Virus record (IMG/VR): IMGVR_UViG_3300033067_002100
Span: 1-50,685 of that record
Reading direction: 5' to 3' (one strand)
Length of the DNA stretch: 50,685 nucleotides
DNA from: a virus
Taxonomy: Duplodnaviria; Caudoviricetes
Shown here: piece after piece, positions 29,969 through 48,740 of the stretch
How the letters are laid out: each line of letters begins with the position of its first letter
Numbering within the stretch: position 1 is the first letter of the stretch
Made by a program: the position numbers and the translations under genes
Notes under the pieces: model-generated
Database searches by the model: none
What the model was told of the DNA's origin: nothing
The model's input: only the letters and a program-made list of their open reading frames with translations

Positions 29969-30291
29969 TCGTCCCCCATCACGACCGAAGCAGCCCTCCA
30001 TCTTAGTTCCTCGCGGTCGGCCGAGTCGTTGATCAACTTAGCGAGTTTTGCAGGCACCAGCCGCGAGTAGTGCATCTTGTTCCCCGTTTTCACAACGACG
30101 CGGACCTGCGCCTCGGCACTTCCTTGCGGTGGTTGTTTGAATGTCCGGAGCACGTGTTCGAGTTCTTTTGCTGAAAGGATTACCATGTCCATAGTATCGT
30201 GAGTTATCTGTCTAACCCTCGCCAACCTCGCGATTGCTGTTGAGGGCACCGAATACGTGGCATCGACGTTCTCATTAACAATCGAGTTCAT
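29965..30291 (-). CDS. Hypothetical protein
   Basis: ATGA-coupled on both sides. Confidence 0.6.
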   Translation of the reverse strand: MNSIVNENVDATYSVPSTAIARLARVRQITHDTMDMVILSAKELEHVLRTFKQPPQGSAEAQVRVVVKTGNKMHYSRLVPAKLAKLINDSADREELRWRAASVVMGDE

Positions 30292-30599
30292 CGGATGCCG
30301 CCTCCCGTCACAAAGCCGTCAGGATAACGCTCTCGCAGCTTACGGATATTCGCCTCCGCGACTTCGACCAAAGAGAGGCCGTTCAAATTGGCCACCCAGG
30401 TAAGATAAAAAAGTGCGTCGCCGAGTTCTTTCTGCAGCTTGCTGGTTTCCGCGCGAACGCCGTGAAAGCGCTCTTTCTTAATTAACTCAATGACTTCTCC
30501 GACTTCGCCCGCCAGCCCGAGAGCAGCGTTCAAAAGCGCGTCAGGATCCTCGTTTCGAGTCCGAGCAGCCTCTTCTTCGTACCAAGCGAAATCATTCAT
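30288..30599 (-). CDS. MazG-like nucleotide pyrophosphohydrolase
   Basis: LGLAGEVGEVIELIKK...ELGDALFY...N..KL..RYP.GF. Confidence 0.9.
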   Translation of the reverse strand: MNDFAWYEEEAARTRNEDPDALLNAALGLAGEVGEVIELIKKERFHGVRAETSKLQKELGDALFYLTWVANLNGLSLVEVAEANIRKLRERYPDGFVTGGGIR

Positions 30600-30676
30600 G
30601 TGAAACGCTCCAACAGTAAAGTGACTGCTGCTGTGACAACCACACCGAGTGAAAATCCAAGGATCAGCTCGACCAT
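30596..30676 (-). CDS. 26-aa single-TM microprotein (not in ORF track)
   Basis: MVELILGFSLGVVVTAAVTLLLERFT; TAATG and ATGA overlaps. Confidence 0.55.
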   Translation of the reverse strand: MVELILGFSLGVVVTAAVTLLLERFT

Positions 30677-30762
30677 TACTTGCTCTCCATCCAACGCCCT
30701 ACCTGCATGCCAAGAGCAAATGTGTTGAGCAGCGCCATTCCAACAATAATTACTTCAATCAT
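30676..30762 (-). CDS. 28-aa single-TM microprotein
   Basis: MIEVIIVGMALLNTFALGMQVGRWMESK; ATGA and TAATG overlaps. Confidence 0.55.
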   Translation of the reverse strand: MIEVIIVGMALLNTFALGMQVGRWMESK

Positions 30763-30848
30763 TTCTTTACCTGCTTCTTTACGGAAAACGGCTTCACCGC
30801 CGGGGTCAATTTGATCACTGCAATCGGAAACAAAATGTGGGTTTTCAT
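30759..30848 (-). CDS. 29-aa basic microprotein (not in ORF track)
   Basis: MKTHILFPIAVIKLTPAVKPFSVKKQVKK; ATGA overlaps at both ends; AAGGAG SD. Confidence 0.5.
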   Translation of the reverse strand: MKTHILFPIAVIKLTPAVKPFSVKKQVKK

Positions 30849-31072
30849 CGTTGCTCCTTGCGCGTCGCGAACCGATAGGTGCTGGCACCCGTCTTCTCGT
30901 CGATTGTGCGAATCCAGCGGCCTCGACTGAGAAGTTTCTGTGCGCGCTCACGCTCGAAGTTTGCGTCACCGCGGGCTTCAGCGAGCTGCAGCTCGTAGTC
31001 CATGAACTTTTCGTTGGCCCAGATCGAGCCACCAGCGGTACCCGTAAACAGCAGTAATGCTAGCGTTCTCAT
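30845..31072 (-). CDS. Small protein with hydrophobic N-terminus
   Basis: AGGAG SD; ATGA coupling. Confidence 0.6.
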   Translation of the reverse strand: MRTLALLLFTGTAGGSIWANEKFMDYELQLAEARGDANFERERAQKLLSRGRWIRTIDEKTGASTYRFATRKEQR

Positions 31073-31272
31073 TTCTTCTCCTTTTCTTCTTTGAAGTTCA
31101 GCTCAACGACTTCGAACGGGTACCCCGTGATTTTGCGGAGTTCCTTCACAGCTTTTCTCACCTGCTTCAGCTGAAAGATCGCTGGCAGTTCGTCGAAGTA
31201 ACGGGCCTCACCTTTTGCATCGATGTACCCGACGCCCCAAAACTGAAACTCCTTATATTTGCGTAGAGTCAT
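31069..31272 (-). CDS. Hypothetical protein
   Basis: GGAG SD; ATGA coupling. Confidence 0.6.
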   Translation of the reverse strand: MTLRKYKEFQFWGVGYIDAKGEARYFDELPAIFQLKQVRKAVKELRKITGYPFEVVELNFKEEKEKK

Positions 31273-31763
31273 TTCTTAGCTCCGTACTTGAAGCGATCGT
31301 CCACCCCGGTTTCAGTCTCTTCGTACGTAAGAAGAAACATCAGGTTGACGATTGCGTGAGCAAGGTGCTGCTGGCCTGACTCGGCGTCAAAACGTTCGCC
31401 CTTTTGCCACGCAGCAATGTGGCGAAACGCTGCGCCCAGCGGACGAGACCAGGCCATGCCTTGGCGCCAGTTGTACGCCTTGTTGACCTTGTCGTATTTT
31501 TCGACACCGTAGGCCAACACTTTACCGACTTCGATCATGGCTTCCGCTGGGGCCAGGTCCATGCGGGGTTTGCCCTCATCGAACTTGATTCCCGTGGGTT
31601 TGGGGCTGGTAACGAAGCCGTCGAAAGTGTCCCCGTATGCGTCAGGCAGGTCCTTGTCGAACGACTTTGCGTAGTCGTGCTCCACAGGTGGAACTTCAAC
31701 GTCCTTGAGATTGTTCTCAGCCCAAGCATTCAAACGGTGAATTGAGTTTCTAAAATTGTTCAA
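31269..31763 (-). CDS. dATP/dGTP diphosphohydrolase-like protein (DUF5664)
   Basis: GIKFDEGKPRMDL, YG..KY, NWRQG, AAFRH..AW..GE..D.ESG..HLAHA. Confidence 0.85.
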   Translation of the reverse strand: MNNFRNSIHRLNAWAENNLKDVEVPPVEHDYAKSFDKDLPDAYGDTFDGFVTSPKPTGIKFDEGKPRMDLAPAEAMIEVGKVLAYGVEKYDKVNKAYNWRQGMAWSRPLGAAFRHIAAWQKGERFDAESGQQHLAHAIVNLMFLLTYEETETGVDDRFKYGAKK

Positions 31764-32326
31764 GCGACAAGCTCCTTCTTCAAATCAGTGACAATCTTGA
31801 TGAGCGGATCCCAGCCGCTGACGCGCGGCAGGTCGATGCGACGGTTGTGCGGACAATCCCACAGCAGTGCGACGCCGCTGTTGAGCGCCGACCAGGCCCG
31901 AACATTAGTAGCGTGATCATCAACGAATAGATCTGCGGAGACGAACTGCTTCGCGCTGGTGTGAACGATCTGGTTTTCGTTGACGCCGAAATGTCTCTTC
32001 AGCCACGCAGTGCGCTCAAATGCCCATGTCGGAGAACTTAGCCAAGGTGACGTAACAAGGACTACATCTGCAAATTTTTGCAGTGCTTTGAATCCATGTT
32101 TGGCACCGGGCAAGACTAGCAAACTTTCGCAAAATCCCGGGGTGCCGATAAGTTCAAAGACCGCCTCAGTCTCCTCAGGTTGCAACTTGAACTGCAACCA
32201 AGGCGACCACTGCGACACTTCCTGTGATTGGTAGTGCCTGCCAGTGACGTGGTGTATCGCGTCCAGAGCACCTTCGAGAAAGTCGGCTAGAATTCCGTCG
32301 ACATCCAAAGCAACGAGTGGTCGCAT
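31760..32326 (-). CDS. 5'(3')-deoxyribonucleotidase (HAD, NT5C-like)
   Basis: DVDGILADF, TSP, K, FVDD, PHN motifs. Confidence 0.88.
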   Translation of the reverse strand: MRPLVALDVDGILADFLEGALDAIHHVTGRHYQSQEVSQWSPWLQFKLQPEETEAVFELIGTPGFCESLLVLPGAKHGFKALQKFADVVLVTSPWLSSPTWAFERTAWLKRHFGVNENQIVHTSAKQFVSADLFVDDHATNVRAWSALNSGVALLWDCPHNRRIDLPRVSGWDPLIKIVTDLKKELVA

Positions 32327-37952: not shown

Positions 37953-38541
37953 CGAGCACCGAGTCAGCGAATCCTAAGTCTTCCTCGTGGTTGTGGAGGA
38001 TGTCTTGTACCTCTTCAGCGAAAGCCAAACCCGACTCGTCGACCCACACTGCGTCCTCGTCGCGCTCGACCAAGTAGGCAAAAGCAGTCTTGCCCTGAAA
38101 CTGTAAGCATAAGGTGCGCCGCGCTAGGTCTGCCGGTGCTAACTCAAGTTGCGTGGGAGTTAGTTCCGGAGACCGCTGGTTGACGTAGCTTGCTCGTTTA
38201 GTCGCGGTGAGGCGCAGTGCTTTGGCGCGCAACGCCCGGAGCCTGTCGTAGAGCACGCTTCGCTTTACGTTTAGCACCTTTGCGATTTTGCGCGGCGGCA
38301 TCTGCAAGAACAGCTCTGCTAGTTCCTGTTCACTCGGTAGCAGGTCAGGCATAGCCGTCGTGATTGCGTTCACGATGTATTGACGATCGAAGTTAATGAC
38401 CTTGGTGAACGAGTGGTAAGGCAGACAACCAGAGAGGCCAGCTGCGAGTTCAGGTTCTGTTTTAGCGTGGTTTCGCAGCCATTCAAGCGCCGCTTTGTCT
38501 TTGGAGAGTTTTACGGTTGGGTTGTTACTGTTGTTGGACAT
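37936..38541 (-). CDS. HTH protein (sigma70 region 4 / LuxR-like)
   Basis: LLPSEQELAEL...PRKIAKVLNVKRSVLYDRL. Confidence 0.6.
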   Translation of the reverse strand: MSNNSNNPTVKLSKDKAALEWLRNHAKTEPELAAGLSGCLPYHSFTKVINFDRQYIVNAITTAMPDLLPSEQELAELFLQMPPRKIAKVLNVKRSVLYDRLRALRAKALRLTATKRASYVNQRSPELTPTQLELAPADLARRTLCLQFQGKTAFAYLVERDEDAVWVDESGLAFAEEVQDILHNHEEDLGFADSVLDVESY

Positions 38542-39299
38542 GCATCGGGGGGTTCTCCTTCAGTAAGAATGGCTGGCTGCGCGCCAGGTACGTTGACAGC
38601 CGGGCTGCCCGCAGGAACACGGCTCCGATAAACCGCCTCCCGTTTCAGGATCTTGTGAATTGTACCGACTTCGATGCGCGTGTTGTTACTCGTGCGGAAG
38701 CCGCGGGTGTGGACAACATCCACTATGTTTCTCAGGGAAGCTCCGGAGGACCGTAGTTGATGACAAAGGCGGACCAAATCAGCGCCACGATCGTCAATGG
38801 CCAATGCTCCACCACCCACGGAACGAAACCCAGTAGCAGCTCTACCACCCCGAAAACTCCCTCGGCGTTTGATAGAGGCCGCCTTCGCCTGCTTCATTCT
38901 TCCTAACCATTCTGCACGCTGAAATTCGGCGACACTACCGAGCAACTGGCGAACCAAGTTCCCTGTGGGTGAATCCTCAAGCTTAACGGTAGCGGCCACG
39001 ACTTCCACACCGGCCGCGGTGAATTGGGCATAGAGCTGCTCTGACACGACGAGCTTACGTGCAAAGCGATCAAGACGATCGACCACCAAGCGCGTGAGTG
39101 AACCTTGAGAGGCCTCCGTCAACAGACGCGTGATTTCTTCTCGGTCGGCAGTCGTGCCCGTGACTGTCTCAGAAACCCATTCATCGATCTGAACATTGTT
39201 GTGCAGCGCCCAAGCCAAGATGGAAATGCGTTGCTGTTCGATACCATTGCCAGCTTCCTGGCCCTTATCGGAGATACGCATGTAGGCGACTGTTTTCAT
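38511..39299 (-). CDS. Serine recombinase (resolvase catalytic domain plus short recombinase domain)
   Basis: AYMRIS..Q..G.EQQ, DRLDRFAR, VAEFQR, G.F.GG....GF; start set at ATG39299 from promoter geometry. Confidence 0.9.
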   Translation of the reverse strand: MKTVAYMRISDKGQEAGNGIEQQRISILAWALHNNVQIDEWVSETVTGTTADREEITRLLTEASQGSLTRLVVDRLDRFARKLVVSEQLYAQFTAAGVEVVAATVKLEDSPTGNLVRQLLGSVAEFQRAEWLGRMKQAKAASIKRRGSFRGGRAATGFRSVGGGALAIDDRGADLVRLCHQLRSSGASLRNIVDVVHTRGFRTSNNTRIEVGTIHKILKREAVYRSRVPAGSPAVNVPGAQPAILTEGEPPDACPTTVTTQP

Positions 39300-39333
39300 G
39301 CTTCCATTGTAGCGCAATTGGAAACGTTGTCAA
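39300..39333 (-). promoter_or_regulatory. Near-consensus sigma70 promoter, leaderless geometry
   Basis: TTGACA-16 nt-TACAAT-6 nt-ATG. Confidence 0.75.
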
Positions 39334-39341
39334 ATAGATTA

Positions 39342-40292
39342 TTATCTTACATTGGACATTAGAATTTTATGCTTGATGTTGGTGAGTCCGGCTGCATGAA
39401 CGCCAGAGAATACGTACCAACCCTGCGGCCGCAAACGCACTATCCCCTCTGCTTCCAGTGCGCGCATGTATTGGGGCCTGGACAACTCAAGTGGCGCAAC
39501 TGCCTTGGCAGATAGCAGTCGTGACATCAGTCGCTGCTTCGTGATCTGCAGCTTCGCACCTTGCAGTCGGTACGAGATGTCGTCAGGAACCACCGTTGGC
39601 ATGTGATAACGAAAATGTTGGAGCGTGGGCGACTCTTCCCAAAGCTTAACGCCAGCGGCCGCGATGGCCCGATGCTTAGAGGTTGTCAGCGCCTTTCCAT
39701 CAGCGATGGCTAAAGTCGCGTCCCAGGCCACCTTAGGAAGAAAATGTCCGCGCGCATCGCAAAGCTCACTTGACCAGGTAGGACCCAAAAATCCTGCAAT
39801 GAGCCATTCCGGCGCCCCAACAGCACGCAACATACTTCCGTAGGCATCTTGTGGAAATGCGAACACGCCCACTCGCTCCCGCGGTACCCACATGAATTGA
39901 TTGGAGATGCGATGCCACGTAGCGTTGCGCAGCATTATGATCGGCTTGTAGTTGGGCGTGTGGTACTTCTGCGTGCGTTGATGGCGAAGCATTGCCACCA
40001 TAGTTCTGCACAGCGTTTCGTCTGAGTACTGCCCGTTGTCGTCAAGTACGCCGTAGCACCGAGCTGTAGTTGAGACCGGGGGTAGCGCAGGTTCACCCTC
40101 GATACCGAGCTGCCGCAGGAGTGTAGTCTTCCCTACCCCGGTCGCCGCAACGAAAATCGATTCCTCTCGGACTCGCAAATCAACGCGCTGAGAAATGTCG
40201 ATGATTGGGGCGGCAGAAGGAAAAGAGCGAACGATCTGCGCAATGTCGCTGAACGTCTTGTCAGACGGCAGGAGTGTCAGCTGGTTGGTCAA
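39342..40292 (-). CDS. P-loop NTPase-like hypothetical protein
   Basis: IFVAATGVGKTT Walker A; GVLDD candidate Walker B. Confidence 0.55.
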   Translation of the reverse strand: MTNQLTLLPSDKTFSDIAQIVRSFPSAAPIIDISQRVDLRVREESIFVAATGVGKTTLLRQLGIEGEPALPPVSTTARCYGVLDDNGQYSDETLCRTMVAMLRHQRTQKYHTPNYKPIIMLRNATWHRISNQFMWVPRERVGVFAFPQDAYGSMLRAVGAPEWLIAGFLGPTWSSELCDARGHFLPKVAWDATLAIADGKALTTSKHRAIAAAGVKLWEESPTLQHFRYHMPTVVPDDISYRLQGAKLQITKQRLMSRLLSAKAVAPLELSRPQYMRALEAEGIVRLRPQGWYVFSGVHAAGLTNIKHKILMSNVR

Positions 40293-40638
40293 CTGCTTTT
40301 TGCTCCTGATGTTCGTCGACCACTTTGCTTGCTTCGCGCATTAGGTAGAGCACCTTCTTCTTCCACTGCGAAGGCACTTCCGACGCTACCGCGTTGATGC
40401 AGCGGTTAAGGTTTTTCTCGACAGCCTGTTGTACAGGCGTTGAAAACTGGAGCGTTTCCACAACGTGGAGAAATGCAGCCGCGGCCTCCAGTACAGCCGT
40501 CTGCGCATAGGCGGCATCCGCAATCGCTTCCTCTTCGGTGTTCACGTCATTGAAACGATTCGCGTTTGAAAGAATGGGCGGATCGATCTTTACAGTAGGT
40601 GCAGGACTATTAACTTTCGTATCGTCAGGAGTAACCAT
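40261..40638 (-). CDS. Hypothetical protein
   Basis: Helical 125-aa ORF directly downstream of the RNA block. Confidence 0.6.
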   Translation of the reverse strand: MVTPDDTKVNSPAPTVKIDPPILSNANRFNDVNTEEEAIADAAYAQTAVLEAAAAFLHVVETLQFSTPVQQAVEKNLNRCINAVASEVPSQWKKKVLYLMREASKVVDEHQEQKAVDQPADTPAV

Positions 40639-40694
40639 TTGTGTCTCTCATTGTGTGCAAACAGACAAGTTTGTCTGGAATGGGTTACAAAAGC

Positions 40695-40790
40695 GTTTGC
40701 CGCTTGGATTCGAACCAAGTCCTGCGCGTTATCAGTGCGCTGTGCGACCAGCTGCCTTCTACGGAGGACTTACAACCACACTCCGGCAAA
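40695..40790 (-). ncRNA. tRNA-Ile(GAU)-like RNA with a 24-nt insertion in the D stem
   Basis: Acceptor TTTGCCG/CGGCAAA; T arm CTTGG-TTCGAAT-CCAAG; anticodon loop CT-GAT-AA; D loop AGCTGGTC; 96 nt minus 24 nt gives a 72-nt cloverleaf; no encoded CCA. Confidence 0.7.
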
Positions 40791-40801
40791 CAAACACTTG
40801 T

Positions 40802-40851
40802 CTCTCCAAGGAGTCACACCACTAGGGTCCGTAGAACCCGGCCAGGTGTCG
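40802..40851 (-). repeat. Structured RNA motif, copy B
   Basis: CGACACCTG-[GCCGGGTTCTACGGACCCT]-AGTGGTGTGACT-CCT-TGGAGAG. Confidence 0.65.
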
Positions 40852-40903
40852 GCCATGCTGCATGTACGTCAAAGACGGAACTAACAGCAGAAAACAGGGC
40901 TTA

Positions 40904-40945
40904 CTCTCCAGCCAAAGTCACACCACTCTCGCGAAGCAGGTGTCG
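40904..40945 (-). repeat. Structured RNA motif, copy A
   Basis: CGACACCTG-[CTTCGCGAG]-AGTGGTGTGACT-TTGGC-TGGAGAG. Confidence 0.65.
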
Positions 40946-40951
40946 CTCGGT

Positions 40952-41065
40952 TGGGCTCAGCGGGATTCGAACCCACGAGAGTAGCCAACCTGTGCCCCAC
41001 CAGGGGACAACTCTTGGTAGCGGGAGAAAACCCAGCGACGTCTTCTCGTGCTGGGACATGAACCC
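40952..41065 (-). ncRNA. 114-nt tRNA-like RNA with expanded D and anticodon domains
   Basis: Acceptor GGGTTCA/TGAGCCC plus A73; U8; T arm GTGGG-TTCGAAT-CCCGC; internal hairpins CCCAGC/GCTGGG and CCCC-TGGT-GGGG. Confidence 0.6.
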
Positions 41066-41100
41066 AGTGGCTTGACATCTTCGCCCTTCCCGCGACGTTT

Positions 41101-41382
41101 TTACTTATCAATCCCCAACCCCAGACGCAGTTTGCGTGCATAGTCGCGCATCTGCTCGCGAGTCATATCATCACTGTCGAATCCGATGTCCCACGCGAAT
41201 TGCTCAAGCTTGCGAGACTTCCTCACCAACTCTCTGTTCAGTTGCATTTCGAACTCGCGCACCTGTTGGAGGATTTGGTACTTTCCTGCGTACTGCTTAT
41301 ATGCTGCGTTTTTAGTTCTCAATCCTCGCAACCGTTGCTTGACTACTTCGGGAAGCTCCATCTCGTCGGGCAGCAACTTCAT
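41101..41382 (-). CDS. Basic helical hypothetical protein heading the RNA-block transcript
   Basis: 93-aa ORF preceded by TTGGTT-17 nt (ending TGA)-TAAACT-6 nt-ATG. Confidence 0.65.
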   Translation of the reverse strand: MKLLPDEMELPEVVKQRLRGLRTKNAAYKQYAGKYQILQQVREFEMQLNRELVRKSRKLEQFAWDIGFDSDDMTREQMRDYARKLRLGLGIDK

Positions 41383-41445
41383 GTTATCAGTTTATCATAA
41401 AACATTACAGCAACCAAACGTCGCCGACCAAAATCAGCAAATGGT

Positions 41446-42267
41446 ATGCCCCTAGTAGACATCAACCGACCCGGCATCATTGTCCGCAACGTGATAGACG
41501 AGCTTAAACGTTGGACAAAGCACTCTAGTGAAAACACCGAGCGCATCAACAACAAGTTCTACGAGCTCCCGGCCGCCTACCAGACATTCACGCACGGCAC
41601 GCAGCAGGAAGTCCCCAACCCATTCTATCCATCCGTGCCGACCGGATTTCTCGTTACGAACACGAGCGCCTCAACATCTCCAAGTATCTCGTTCACTCCA
41701 GTCACCCGCTCGGGGTTCTGTGGAATAACGGCAAACTTTGCACGCCCAGCCGGGGTTGTGGACCTGCTACGAGCGGCCACTCAATCAATACCGAGCGCAA
41801 CATCCACACCCATTCAATGGACTTCAGACGAATTGTCGCTCACCTTGGTAGGTACAACAGCCACTAGCGGCGCGTTCTCGTATGACTATACAACGACTAC
41901 GGGCACACCTCCGACGAATAGCAAAATCACCTGCCTATCCTCAGGGTTTGTATTGGTAACTGCCTCTGGTGGTTTCGCTGCGAATGCGACAGGGCTCCGT
42001 GAGTTCTGGTTAGTAAAGAACAACGCAACCACTCCGCGATGGGCGGATACATTGTACCAGTCGCCACCCGTAACTACGGACATTCGATTCAACCTTAGTG
42101 CTGTTATTCAGGTCACCGCTGGTGATTATCTGCAGCTGTATTGTTACCAGGATAGTGGTGGCGCGTTAAACACCCTTGCGGGCACAGTTTCGCGATTCCA
42201 AGCGCGATACGTAGATGTGCCGACAACATACTCAGGCACGGTGCAAGGTTATCTACTCGGCCCTTAG
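41446..42267 (+). CDS. C1q/TNF-like jelly-roll domain protein, probable tail tip/receptor-binding protein
   Basis: QSIPSATSTPIQW, KITC.SSG..LVTA, SAVIQVTAGDYLQLYCYQDSG pattern; Thr/Ser-rich; lone + strand gene. Confidence 0.6.
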   Translation: MPLVDINRPGIIVRNVIDELKRWTKHSSENTERINNKFYELPAAYQTFTHGTQQEVPNPFYPSVPTGFLVTNTSASTSPSISFTPVTRSGFCGITANFARPAGVVDLLRAATQSIPSATSTPIQWTSDELSLTLVGTTATSGAFSYDYTTTTGTPPTNSKITCLSSGFVLVTASGGFAANATGLREFWLVKNNATTPRWADTLYQSPPVTTDIRFNLSAVIQVTAGDYLQLYCYQDSGGALNTLAGTVSRFQARYVDVPTTYSGTVQGYLLGP

Positions 42268-42539
42268 ACCTTGCAGGCAGGGCATACGTAGTTCGCCTGA
42301 ATAAACACCCGCTCGTACGCTTCGCACTTTGGGCACAACTCAGAATTGGTGTACGCAGGGATACTACTGCCTACTAAGGCCGCGGTAACCCTATCCTCAG
42401 GTTCCTGTTCTTCGTCAGGCTTGTCCTTTTGGTTCGGCGGCATCCACATCGAGTCGGAGAAAACCTTAGAGACAGCATCTGAACCATACACAGAGTTCAG
42501 GAACTCCAACACGCCGCTCACGTCTCCCTTGAGGCTCAT
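42264..42539 (-). CDS. Zn-ribbon hypothetical protein
   Basis: CPKC...CPAC. Confidence 0.6.
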   Translation of the reverse strand: MSLKGDVSGVLEFLNSVYGSDAVSKVFSDSMWMPPNQKDKPDEEQEPEDRVTAALVGSSIPAYTNSELCPKCEAYERVFIQANYVCPACKV

Positions 42540-42733
42540 AAAATTTCTCCTTCCGACATCGAGCGCTTTCTACGGGAGCCGCGGGTGTTTTCTTTGATGC
42601 GCGTAGTATAGGCAGCAAAAGCCTCTCGCATCTCGACATGGCCTCCGAGCGTAGGCGCTTCCCCCGTAGTGCGGACGTAGCGATGCAGCTCTTCCAGGAA
42701 GCGCGTCTCTAGTTCCTTAACCCCAGAATACAT
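42536..42733 (-). CDS. Hypothetical protein
   Basis: GGAGG SD; ATGA coupling downstream. Confidence 0.55.
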   Translation of the reverse strand: MYSGVKELETRFLEELHRYVRTTGEAPTLGGHVEMREAFAAYTTRIKENTRGSRRKRSMSEGEIL

Positions 42734-42989
42734 TAGTGATGCCTCCCTCGTTGCGGCGGTGCACAGCGCGGAGATCCTTATCGTAGACTGGCTCCCACCC
42801 TACGCGGCGACCTTTGCCGATCTTGCGGCAGAGCACTTCCGCGGAAACAGCGGATGCCTCACGGAATCGCAATTCAACACCGTCGACATTCAGCACATTC
42901 AGTCGACATAACGTCGTCACTGGCAGAATCACATAATCCTCGAGCTTAGGACCAAGCTGTAGCCGTGCCTCGTTAACGTGTTTTGTCAT
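42717..42989 (-). CDS. Hypothetical protein
   Basis: Preceded by TAAAAT-6 nt-ATG. Confidence 0.6.
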   Translation of the reverse strand: MTKHVNEARLQLGPKLEDYVILPVTTLCRLNVLNVDGVELRFREASAVSAEVLCRKIGKGRRVGWEPVYDKDLRAVHRRNEGGITNVFWG

Positions 42990-43016
42990 TCTAATATTTT
43001 ATAATACAACGATAGA

Positions 43017-43442
43017 TCATTCAAGGCATTTTGTTGCACTCATAACCAAAAGCTGGGTGAGTTCGGTTGTAACTCGTCTCCGCAGACTCACGGTTAGTCG
43101 CCCCCAGCTTCGTGTTTCGGGGTGCGTCGCCATAATGCCGTCTGGGCGATGGTCTAGCCCGAAGTAGTGTCCAAGTTCGTGAATGAAAACTGTGTAGAGT
43201 GTTGAGGGACTGAGACCGGGGCGGAGCGCAATGAGGTTACTGCGGCTGCCTCTTAGGTGGTAACCAACGGAATCGCGATCCGCAGGTCCAAATGCGTCGT
43301 CACTTATTACGATACGACGGCAGCGAGGACCGAATTTGCGCGCGACAACCACCCGGCTACTAACAACTGCGAAGTCGCGTAGAGCTTGTCTAATCACTAA
43401 GCGCTCCGAAGAATTGCCGCCGCAGAGTTGAAAGACCGTCAC
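43017..43442 (-). CDS. Metzincin (matrixin-like) Zn metalloprotease
   Basis: HELGHYFGLDH plus Met-turn GIM. Confidence 0.75.
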   Translation of the reverse strand: MTVFQLCGGNSSERLVIRQALRDFAVVSSRVVVARKFGPRCRRIVISDDAFGPADRDSVGYHLRGSRSNLIALRPGLSPSTLYTVFIHELGHYFGLDHRPDGIMATHPETRSWGRLTVSLRRRVTTELTQLLVMSATKCLE

Positions 43443-43741
43443 TACCTATTTGCGAGTTTGAGAATGCTCTCCTTCAGTGCGAGGAATTCCTGCTCGACGC
43501 GCTGCGCCTCTGGCAAATGCTCGACTTTCCACTCCTTGTGAAGTTCAGCCATTCTCCGGCCTATCGCGACCGCGATTTCAGACAAGATTTGATTGGTTTT
43601 GTAGAATTTACGCAGCCACTTTAGATTCGAGTCCAGGCGAAAATACACCCAGCAATCGTCGTGCCCACCACCGGGCTTTGTGTAGTCGAATGGGACCCCA
43701 CAGCATGGACACCCGTCAGGTGGTGGCATTGTGTGCTGCAT
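43442..43741 (-). CDS. Hypothetical Cys/His-containing protein
   Basis: CPCC...HDDC; promoter-like TTGACC-17 nt-TCAATT-6 nt-ATG upstream. Confidence 0.55.
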   Translation of the reverse strand: MQHTMPPPDGCPCCGVPFDYTKPGGGHDDCWVYFRLDSNLKWLRKFYKTNQILSEIAVAIGRRMAELHKEWKVEHLPEAQRVEQEFLALKESILKLANR

Positions 43742-48272: not shown

Positions 48273-48740
48273 ATGAACAAGTTCCTTGCCATCGCATTTC
48301 TGTCCGGATGCGGCACGCAACAGCCACCACCTAAGCGCGCTAACTTCCACCCTTCTTACGTTGATTACATGTACAGAAAAGACTTTTTCATACTGGCCGA
48401 CTACATCAACGAGGAGCTCGGCTACGAAGCCCTCTCTGTACAGGAAGACTCGCATCAATCGATACAAGTACTAAGCGCTGACAATCAGGAGTTCTGGAGC
48501 AAACTTCCGCCCGGGACTATCGGCGCCACCCAAAATCGCACGACCATCATTCTTCTCCCTGTGGAGACAGTCTCAACCAAGCACGCCAGATCCCTTCTCG
48601 CACATGAACTCGGACACGCGCTGGGCTTAGTTCACTCAGACCACGGCTTAATGGCGCCAATAATCACAGATGATTGCGAGAATATCGAGGGGCCCTGTCT
48701 GCTTGACGCCCTCCGCGACCAAGGCCTTGCCCCACAATAA
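48273..48740 (+). CDS. Metzincin (matrixin-like) lipoprotein
   Basis: Lipobox LSGC; HELGHALGLVH plus GLM Met-turn; own promoter TGA-TAAAAC-6 nt-ATG. Confidence 0.8.
   Translation: MNKFLAIAFLSGCGTQQPPPKRANFHPSYVDYMYRKDFFILADYINEELGYEALSVQEDSHQSIQVLSADNQEFWSKLPPGTIGATQNRTTIILLPVETVSTKHARSLLAHELGHALGLVHSDHGLMAPIITDDCENIEGPCLLDALRDQGLAPQ

What the first reader, a model, noticed from the sequence alone, without database searches (positions are those of the whole stretch)
40695..40791. tRNA-Ile(GAU) scaffold interrupted by a precise 24-nt D-stem insertion
Removing 40755-40778 (TGGTTGTAAGTCCTCCGTAGAAGG on -) yields TTTGCCG GA GTGC AGCTGGTC GCAC A GCGCA CTGATAA CGCGC AGGA CTTGG TTCGAAT CCAAG CGGCAAA C, a 72-nt cloverleaf. 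The unspliced form can still pair GTGTG/CGCAC, giving a long D arm. Other oddities are G8 instead of U8, an A31-C39 mismatch, and a potential G-1:C73 pair (a tRNA-His hallmark) on an Ile anticodon. Short D-arm introns are known in archaea, not typically in bacteria or phages.
Basis: partly seen in the sequence, partly recalled or inferred. Interest (0 to 1): 0.7.

Follow-up and report, generated by a model that had tools for sequence, protein, structure and literature searches.

The report
Interrupted tRNA-like genes in a phage
A freshwater bacteriophage carries two neighbouring tRNA-shaped sequences whose D-arm region is swollen by extra bases, which look more like damaged or repurposed tRNA genes than like a tRNA with a removable intron.

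Summary
On the minus strand at 40791-40695 lies a tRNA-Ile(GAU)-shaped sequence with a perfect 7-8 bp acceptor stem, a perfect T arm, a canonical CTGATAA anticodon loop, and about 24-26 surplus bases in the D loop. It is tRNA-derived beyond chance: 120 single-deletion variants give an ARAGORN call, against 0 of 185,400 variants from 40 control windows.

The interpretation as a "precise 24-nt intron" is not supported.
- There is no convincing bulge-helix-bulge motif and no group I intron.
- No RNA ligase or splicing nuclease turned up in 40 ORFs scanned.
- The host is bacterial, judged from a peptidoglycan peptidase.

A second tRNA-like element, 160 nt upstream (41066-40949), also has a perfect 8-bp acceptor stem and T arm and an unrelated, roughly 30-nt larger D region. 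The genome has no bona fide tRNA.

My best reading is that these are two tRNA-derived genes that no longer form the canonical core. They are pseudo-tRNAs whose intact acceptor/T minihelices may still act as processing signals in an early operon.

No relative's DNA could be fetched and no RNA data exist, so function remains open. Interest is modest.

The parts
40695..40791 (-). Element 1: tRNA-Ile(GAU)-like sequence with an 8-bp acceptor stem (G-1:C73 plus TTTGCCG/CGGCAAA), D stem GTG(T)/(G)CAC, anticodon arm GCGCA-CTGATAA-CGCGC, 4-nt variable loop and T arm CTTGG-TTCGAAT-CCAAG. No CCA is encoded.
   Evidence: sequence. Rfam tRNA 23.2 bits, below the 29-bit cut-off. ARAGORN calls only after a deletion.
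40752..40778 (-). Surplus of about 24-26 nt in the D loop. It includes AAGTCCTCCG (40771-40762), which is 9 of 10 complementary to CGCAGGACTT (40726-40717, spanning anticodon-stem end, variable loop and T-stem start).
   Evidence: inverted repeat I3; the MFE fold uses this pairing; no other copy in the window within 3 mismatches.
40949..41066 (-). Element 2: second tRNA-like sequence. It has an 8-bp acceptor stem TGGGTTCA/TGAGCCCA, a T arm GTGGG-TTCGAAT-CCCGC (40976-40960), an anticodon-like arm TGTCCC-CTGGTGG-GGCACA (41009-40991, GGT) and a 14-nt variable region. The D region is replaced by about 47 nt, including the hairpin CCCAGCACG-AGAAGA-CGTCGCTGGG (41055-41031).
   Evidence: Rfam tRNA 21.0 bits; fold; 152 deletion variants give a call, 132 of them Thr(GGT), with deletions of 28-33 nt in the D region; best score 110.3.
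40812..40823 (-). Copy 2 of the exact 12-nt direct repeat AGTGGTGTGACT, 21 nt upstream of element 1.
   Evidence: These are the only two exact copies in the window. The four other matches carry 2 mismatches each, and 6 matches in all is within chance.
40916..40927 (-). Copy 1 of the same 12-nt repeat, 22 nt downstream of element 2.
40639..41100 (-). 462-nt gap between minus-strand ORFs 41101-41382 and 40261-40638 that holds both elements. It is the largest internal ORF-free gap in my hand-made ORF map.
   Evidence: coding fraction 0.927; fold z-score -2.14. The plus-strand ORF 40641-41075 that spans the gap has no homologue and no family.

Best explanation
Elements 1 and 2 are a small cluster of two phage tRNA-derived genes, an Ile(GAU) type and a Thr(GGU)-like type, in the early, minus-strand operon of a freshwater bacteriophage. 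Each is disrupted in the D-arm region by extra sequence that stays in the RNA; it is not an intron. With a 32-nt D loop, G8, C21, no R15:Y48 partner and an insert that can pair with the variable-loop/T-stem region, element 1 probably cannot build the canonical tRNA core and no longer decodes, so it is a pseudo-tRNA. Both elements still have a flawless acceptor/T-arm minihelix with the GG / TTCGAAT elbow nucleotides. I infer that this part is still recognised by RNase P and RNase Z, so the elements at most act as processing or stability signals between the first gene of the operon and the genes downstream. Shown: the anatomy, the tRNA ancestry, the absence of splice signals and the bacterial host. 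Inferred: transcription, loss of decoding, and processing.
For: The genome has no detectable bona fide tRNA: ARAGORN finds 0 and Rfam at gathering threshold finds 0. In the whole-window E-value scan only element 1 appears. Both elements score below the Rfam cut-off, at 23.2 and 21.0 bits against 29. Nine real phage tRNAs scored 47-68.6 bits, and 10 scored 106.9-122.4 in ARAGORN. Element 1 reaches only 103.1-113.3 even after the best deletion. Element 1 departs from near-universal core nucleotides (G8, C21, A at the last variable-loop position, A31-C39); this is read from the sequence, with the canonical positions recalled from general tRNA knowledge. Element 2 has G37/G38 in its anticodon-like loop, a C-C mismatch in that stem and no recognisable D stem. 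The unspliced element 1 prefers a non-cloverleaf fold: MFE -37.2 kcal/mol against -32.3 for the best cloverleaf-compatible structure. There is no splice machinery or motif. In E. coli an aptamer placed in the D loop of tRNA-Tyr gave no detectable RNA, while V-loop fusions were stable (PMC5397188; passages from Methods and Results read). The element is real DNA seen in a second study.
Against: Element 1 is not broadly decayed. Its stems show 1 mismatch in 21-22 pairs, and its anticodon loop CTGATAA is exactly that of a working tRNA-Ile (recalled). Both elements keep perfect acceptor and T stems, 26 pairs with 0 mismatches and 2 G-U pairs. Both large changes fall in the D region although the inserted sequences are unrelated (1709 of 2000 shuffles reach the alignment score). 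A neutral wreck would not be expected to show that pattern, which points to selection on at least part of the structure. A 462-nt non-coding stretch is long for a genome that is 92.7% coding. No relative's DNA and no RNA data could be obtained, so neither decay nor conservation was measured.
Confidence: 0.45

Rival explanations
1. Both elements are selected, non-decoding tRNA mimics. The acceptor/T-arm minihelix and elbow are the functional part, serving as an RNase P/Z processing site, a 3'-end protector, or a decoy for a tRNA-binding host enzyme or defence nuclease. The D and anticodon half is free to vary.
For: Both elements have perfect 8-bp acceptor and 5-bp T stems and a canonical TTCGAAT loop, while the lower half is aberrant in both. 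The two D-region enlargements are independent. The gap is retained in a compact genome. The elements sit between genes on the same strand, downstream of a divergent-promoter region. The whole gap folds somewhat better than shuffles, z = -2.14 with 3 of 100 shuffles as good.
Against: No conservation data exist. The MFE fold of element 1 breaks its own T arm. No known Rfam tRNA-like family matches. The z-scores of the single elements are modest: -2.35 and -1.64.
Confidence: 0.28
2. Element 1 is a working tRNA that keeps the extra 24 nt as an enlarged D loop or arm (D stem GUGU(GG)/(UC)GCAC). It is charged and reads AUY codons. With G-1:C73 it might even be charged by HisRS rather than IleRS.
For: A 4-6 bp D stem forms with the insert in place. 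G18, G19, T54, T55, C56, A58, U33 and A37 are all present. The G-1:C73 pair is present; its role as the main HisRS identity element is recalled, not tested.
Against: G8, C21 and the missing Levitt-pair partner weaken the core. The insert itself has no stable hairpin; the D-arm region alone folds at only -8.4 kcal/mol. A D-loop insertion in E. coli tRNA-Tyr was not tolerated (PMC5397188). A -1/73 complement arises by chance in about 1 of 4 genes. The discriminator is C, not the A73 of tRNA-Ile (recalled).
Confidence: 0.12
3. The 24 nt are a true intron, removed by a host or phage activity to give a 72-nt tRNA-Ile.
For: Removal gives a cloverleaf that ARAGORN accepts (score 103.1). Element 2 also needs a D-region removal to be called.
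Against: The boundaries are not defined. There is no BHB motif. At 24 nt it is far too short for a self-splicing intron, and no intron family is found. The host is bacterial. No ligase or endonuclease was found in 40 ORFs. The two inserts share no sequence or boundary motif.
Confidence: 0.05
4. The elements are tRNA-gene fragments kept as an attachment site (attP) for integration into a host tRNA gene.
For: A recombinase gene lies 1.4 kb downstream (38511-39317, Resolvase domain).
Against: Both 5' and 3' acceptor strands are present, so these are whole genes, not 3' fragments. The recombinase is a small (268 aa) serine type, which is not known to use tRNA sites (recalled). No tyrosine integrase turned up in the ORFs scanned. 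The 21-mer covering the T loop and 3' acceptor strand has 0 exact matches in 185,579 species genomes.
Confidence: 0.03

Closest known systems
Phage-encoded tRNA genes and their pseudogene remnants (tRNA clusters of tailed phages)
   Same: Tandem arrangement in an intergenic stretch among early genes. The T arm, acceptor stem and anticodon loop are of the ordinary bacterial or phage type. BLAST of the 3' two-thirds hits annotated phage tRNA-Asn, -Ile and -Phe genes only weakly (79-88% over 32-44 nt, E 0.1-2).
   Different: Neither element passes ARAGORN or Rfam thresholds. Both carry a large surplus in the D region while all other stems stay almost perfect. No intact tRNA accompanies them.
Archaeal non-canonical (BHB) tRNA introns, including D-arm positions
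   Same: A short insert (tens of nt) at a non-anticodon position whose removal restores a cloverleaf.
   Different: No bulge-helix-bulge geometry at the proposed junctions. The host is bacterial. The cut sites are not uniquely defined.
Bacterial tRNA-His (G-1:C73) and tRNA-Sec / allo-tRNA (8-bp acceptor stem, long D stem)
   Same: An 8-bp acceptor helix is possible in both elements, and a 6-bp D stem is possible in element 1.
   Different: The anticodons are GAU and GGU, not GUG or UCA. Element 1 has a 4-nt variable loop. Its D loop is 20 nt or more, not 4 nt. Rfam keeps tRNA as the best clan member, and that still scores below its cut-off.
tRNA-like processing signals (RNase P or RNase Z substrates embedded in polycistronic RNAs)
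   Same: An intact acceptor/T minihelix with a degenerate lower half, placed between cistrons of one strand.
   Different: No experimental or comparative evidence here. This is a resemblance recalled from the literature, not tested.

Membership tests
Canonical tRNA (Rfam RF00005 / ARAGORN) | Score at or above the family threshold | tested here: not met
   23.2 bits (element 1) and 21.0 bits (element 2) against a 29-bit cut-off. ARAGORN at default settings finds 0 genes.
Canonical tRNA (Rfam RF00005 / ARAGORN) | 7-bp acceptor stem and 5-bp T stem with a T-Psi-C-type 7-nt loop | tested here: met
   TTTGCCG/CGGCAAA and CTTGG-TTCGAAT-CCAAG in element 1. GGGTTCA/TGAGCCC (one G-U pair) and GTGGG-TTCGAAT-CCCGC in element 2.
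Canonical tRNA (Rfam RF00005 / ARAGORN) | D arm with a 3-4 bp stem and a loop of about 7-11 nt; core nucleotides U8, A14, A21, R15:Y48 | tested here: not met
   In element 1 the D loop is 32 nt with the insert in place, position 8 is G, position 21 is C and the last variable-loop base is A. Element 2 has no recognisable D stem. The canonical positions are recalled.
Canonical tRNA (Rfam RF00005 / ARAGORN) | 7-nt anticodon loop with U33 and a purine at 37 | tested here: met
   Element 1 has C-U-GAU-A-A on a 5-bp stem with one A-C mismatch. Element 2 has C-U-GGU-G-G on a stem with a C-C mismatch.
Archaeal BHB tRNA intron | Two 3-nt bulges separated by a 4-bp helix at the two splice sites | tested here: not met
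   My own scan gave 4 weak candidates in element 1. The one near the proposed cut has the central helix UGGU/GCUG (three G-U pairs) and 2 of 3 pairs in each flanking helix. Element 2 gave 6 equally weak candidates.
Archaeal BHB tRNA intron | Host with a tRNA-splicing endonuclease (archaeon or eukaryote) | tested here: not met
   The virus encodes a Peptidase_M15_4/VanY peptidoglycan enzyme and a family-A DNA polymerase. A bacterial host is inferred; the host itself is not identified.
Group I intron in a tRNA gene | A ribozyme core of over 200 nt, usually in the anticodon loop | tested here: not met
   The surplus is 24-26 nt and lies in the D loop. No Rfam intron family matched at E up to 10 in 39500-43500, or up to 5 in the whole window.
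tRNA-His | Encoded G-1 paired with C73 | tested here: met
   G at 40791 and C at 40695.
tRNA-His | GUG anticodon | tested here: not met
   The anticodon is GAT (40733-40731).
attP tRNA fragment | Identity with the 3' part of a host tRNA gene, and a tyrosine integrase nearby | tested here: not met
   0 exact matches of the 21-mer in genome contigs. Only a 268-aa serine recombinase is nearby. The host may be missing from the collection, so the first half of the feature is weak evidence.
tmRNA | tRNA-like domain plus a tag reading frame | tested here: not met
   ARAGORN tmRNA search finds 0.

The most novel reading that the evidence does not exclude
A freshwater phage maintains two tRNA-shaped RNAs with deliberately enlarged D domains and 8-bp acceptor helices. 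These would be working molecules of a new structural class. One possibility is a decoy or substitute that host tRNA-targeting defences cannot cut. Another is a G-1:C73, GAU-anticodon adaptor that is charged with histidine and reads isoleucine codons.
Probability: 0.1. Interest if true: 0.75.

Novelty: new member of a known kind. Interest (0 to 1): 0.3.

Why it matters
If the elements are relics, they show only that this phage lineage once carried tRNA genes and is losing them, which is ordinary. If the intact acceptor/T halves are under selection, they would be a clean natural example of a phage keeping the upper half of a tRNA as an RNA-processing or decoy module while the decoding half drifts. 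A bacterial-virus tRNA that works with 24 extra bases in its D loop, or that has them removed, would be new tRNA biology. None of these can be decided without RNA data or related genomes.

Tried and rejected
Relatives' DNA.
- Viral contigs with three neighbouring proteins, with two protein alignments and with three DNA patterns: all gave 0.
- Metagenome contigs with alignment A1 and with P0006: 0.
- Genome contigs with alignment A3 and with a 21-mer: 0.
- GenBank phages by blastn of 1.2 kb and by tblastn with the capsid, exonuclease and 316-aa proteins: no match. The polymerase reaches only 25% identity.

Protein relatives do exist in the protein collection. For the 316-aa protein there are 3 besides the window's own, at 86, 64 and 45% identity. 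For the exonuclease there are 10, up to 69%, one of them on a 61-kb JGI contig. The tool that fetches their contigs is closed.

I tried to read the gap of relatives through a spurious plus-strand ORF (40641-41072): no homologue, 5 candidates and none scored.

RNA evidence: no RNA holder is listed among 9 runs. The four runs laid gave only short contigs identical to the window, with no variants, joints or indels.

Other checks that gave nothing:
- A third tRNA remnant between the two 12-nt repeats was rejected. Local alignment of the spacer with element 1 or 2 is no better than shuffles (554 and 628 of 1000 shuffles reach it).
- Paralogy of the two D-region inserts was rejected.
- ARAGORN at lowered thresholds gives mutually inconsistent, poor models: Gly/Arg with 'introns', and Thr/Ser/undetermined. 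I did not use them.

Literature: four searches (listings and abstract starts only) turned up no paper on short D-loop insertions in phage or bacterial tRNA genes. That is not proof of absence. Supplements were not consulted.

Full report
Context. The window is one complete virus record of 50,685 bp. It encodes a large terminase, a portal, an HK97-type capsid protein, a family-A DNA polymerase and a PD-(D/E)XK exonuclease. It also encodes a Sak4-like annealing protein, a small serine recombinase, a RepB-type primase and a Peptidase_M15_4/VanY cell-wall enzyme. It is therefore a tailed bacteriophage of a bacterium. It has no near relative among GenBank phages: the polymerase reaches 25% identity, and the capsid, the exonuclease and a neighbouring 316-aa protein have no match. 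Public runs that hold it include riverine metagenomes. The finding lies in a 462-nt gap (40639-41100) between two minus-strand ORFs, 41101-41382 and 40261-40638. In my hand-made ORF map, which is 92.7% coding, this is the largest internal ORF-free stretch.

The observation.
- G(40791), TTTGCCG, GA and GTG come first, followed by 24 nt (40778-40755).
- Then come C AGCTGGTC GCAC, A, GCGCA-CTGATAA-CGCGC, AGGA, CTTGG-TTCGAAT-CCAAG, CGGCAAA and C(40695).
- The acceptor stem (7 pairs, or 8 with G-1:C73), the T stem and the D stem are all Watson-Crick.
- The anticodon stem has one A-C mismatch.

ARAGORN at default settings calls nothing in the window. Rfam at gathering threshold finds nothing. In E-value mode the tRNA model gives 23.2 bits at 40700-40764(-), aligning only model positions 5-66 and using a false 5' end inside the insert. 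For comparison, 9 annotated tRNAs of two cultured phages score 47-68.6 bits, and 10 score 106.9-122.4 in ARAGORN.

Is it more than chance? I deleted every stretch of 1-45 nt from a 135-nt piece around the element and ran ARAGORN on each variant. 120 variants were called, 119 of them as tRNA-Ile(GAT). The same procedure on 40 random 135-nt windows of this genome (185,400 variants) gave no call. A 151-nt contig from a run of a different study matches 40642-40792 without a difference, so the insert is not an assembly error.

Is the insert precise? No. Deletions of 23-28 nt starting anywhere from 40782 to about 40768 restore a call. The best score (113.3) belongs to a 26-nt deletion, 40777-40752 or 40778-40753. 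With the surplus left in place, the D stem still forms as GUGU/GCAC and extends to 6 pairs in a constrained fold. The feature is therefore best described as a D loop of 32 nt instead of about 8.

Is it an intron? I found nothing that would remove it.
- A scan for bulge-helix-bulge geometry gave 4 weak candidates in element 1. The one near the proposed junctions has a central helix of three G-U pairs and one G-C pair, with 2 of 3 pairs in each flanking helix. Element 2 gave 6 equally weak candidates.
- Twenty-four nucleotides cannot be a self-splicing intron, and no intron or ribozyme family matches.
- Pfam scans of 40 ORFs found no RNA ligase, RtcB, polynucleotide kinase or splicing endonuclease.
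- The host is bacterial, as argued above.
- The insert has no second copy in the genome within 3 mismatches and no flanking direct repeat.

A second element. 160 nt upstream, at 41066-40949(-), Rfam gives a second sub-threshold tRNA hit (21.0 bits). Its features:
- an acceptor stem GGGTTCA/TGAGCCC, or 8 pairs with T-1:A73;
- a T arm GTGGG-TTCGAAT-CCCGC;
- an anticodon-like arm TGTCCC-CTGGTGG-GGCACA (GGT, but with G37 and G38 and a C-C mismatch);
- a 14-nt variable region;
- in place of the D arm, about 47 nt that include a strong 9-bp hairpin.

The deletion scan gave 152 calls, 132 of them Thr(GGT), all needing removal of 28-33 nt from the D region. The best score was 110.3. The D regions of the two elements share no significant similarity (1709 of 2000 shuffles reach the alignment score). 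Outside the D regions, only the GGTTCGAATCC T-loop block is shared (9 of 1000 shuffles).

An exact 12-nt direct repeat, AGTGGTGTGACT, lies 22 nt after element 2 and 21 nt before element 1. It occurs nowhere else exactly. The spacer between the two copies is not a third tRNA remnant.

How it most likely works. The two elements are certainly tRNA-derived. They lie on the coding strand of an operon that starts at the divergent region 41383-41445, so I infer that they are transcribed with it.

Several facts speak for loss of normal tRNA function.
- Both elements fail the standard models, and the genome has no intact tRNA.
- Element 1 departs from near-universal core nucleotides (G8, C21, no Y48), which are exactly the residues that organise the D-arm/variable-loop core.
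- Its insert carries AAGUCCUCCG, which is 9 of 10 complementary to the end of the anticodon stem, the variable loop and the start of the T stem. As a result the minimum-energy fold (-37.2 kcal/mol) is not a cloverleaf, and the best cloverleaf-compatible fold is 4.9 kcal/mol worse.
- In E. coli an aptamer placed in the D loop of tRNA-Tyr gave no detectable RNA, whereas V-loop fusions were stable and active (PMC5397188; passages from Methods and Results).

Other facts speak against plain decay.
- The acceptor and T stems of both elements are flawless (26 pairs, 0 mismatches).
- The elbow nucleotides (GG in the D loop, TTCGAAT) are kept.
- Both large changes fall in the D region.
- A compact genome retains the gap.

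I therefore rank the readings as follows:
- pseudo-tRNAs whose upper half may still be processed: 0.45;
- selected tRNA mimics that work through the acceptor/T minihelix: 0.28;
- a working decoding tRNA with a long D loop: 0.12;
- a spliced intron: 0.05;
- an attachment site: 0.03.

The attachment-site idea is weak for three reasons. Both acceptor strands are present, only a 268-aa serine recombinase is nearby, and the T-loop/3'-acceptor 21-mer has no exact match in 185,579 species genomes.

What could not be done. Every route to a relative's DNA failed: 8 viral, 2 metagenome and 2 genome scans. Protein relatives of two neighbouring genes do exist at 45-86% identity, but their contigs could not be fetched. 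No RNA run holds the stretch. The contigs laid were identical fragments without variants. The choice between relic and selected structure therefore rests on anatomy alone.

Comparison with what is known. The elements resemble ordinary phage tRNA genes and their remnants. They differ in keeping every stem except in the D region. They fail the defining tests for a canonical tRNA (score, D arm, core nucleotides), a BHB intron, a group I intron, tRNA-His (the anticodon), tRNA-Sec and tmRNA. Four literature searches (listings only) showed no report of short D-loop insertions in bacterial or phage tRNA genes.

Verdict. The intron reading is not supported. The feature is most likely a pair of disabled or repurposed tRNA genes. 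It is of modest interest unless RNA data or relatives show that the enlarged D domains are maintained.

Noticed in passing
window 40949-41066 (-): A second tRNA-like element with a perfect 8-bp acceptor stem and T arm, a GGT anticodon-like loop and a D region of about 47 nt containing a 9-bp hairpin.
   Followed up: yes
window 40812-40823 and 40916-40927 (-): An exact 12-nt direct repeat, AGTGGTGTGACT, followed in both copies by a similar TTGG..GGAGAG stretch. One copy lies just before element 1 and the other just after element 2. There are no other exact copies in the genome. It could be a regulatory or processing motif.
   Followed up: partly
window 41446-42267 (+): A lone plus-strand ORF (273 aa) inside the minus-strand early block. 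Its C-terminal part matches PHROG virion-structural and tail-protein families (E 1.6e-14 and 9e-5). It has no Pfam match.
   Followed up: no
window 30288-32326 (-): A nucleotide-metabolism trio next to the DNA polymerase: a MazG pyrophosphohydrolase domain (30288-30599), a dATP/dGTP diphosphohydrolase N-terminal domain PF18909 (31269-31763) and an NT5C 5'-nucleotidase (31760-32326). It may point to dNTP-pool editing or a modified base. No PurZ-like gene was seen among the ORFs scanned.
   Followed up: no
window 38511-39317 (-): A small serine recombinase (268 aa) with a Resolvase N-terminal domain plus a weak partial Recombinase domain. It is much shorter than typical large serine integrases, so its role (integrase, invertase or resolvase) is open.
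   Followed up: no
window 43017-43442 (-) and 48273-48740 (+): Two small ORFs (141 and 155 aa) with weak, sub-threshold matches to zinc-metallopeptidase families, confined to a stretch of about 25 residues that looks like an HEXXH-type motif.
   Followed up: no
L003 5618-5702 (Arthrobacter phage Racecar, MN234206.2): The annotated tRNA-His is 85 nt long because of a 5-bp extra (variable) arm. It scores 47 bits in Rfam and 115.6-118.2 in ARAGORN. It is an example of a phage tRNA enlarged in the variable arm rather than the D loop.
   Followed up: partly
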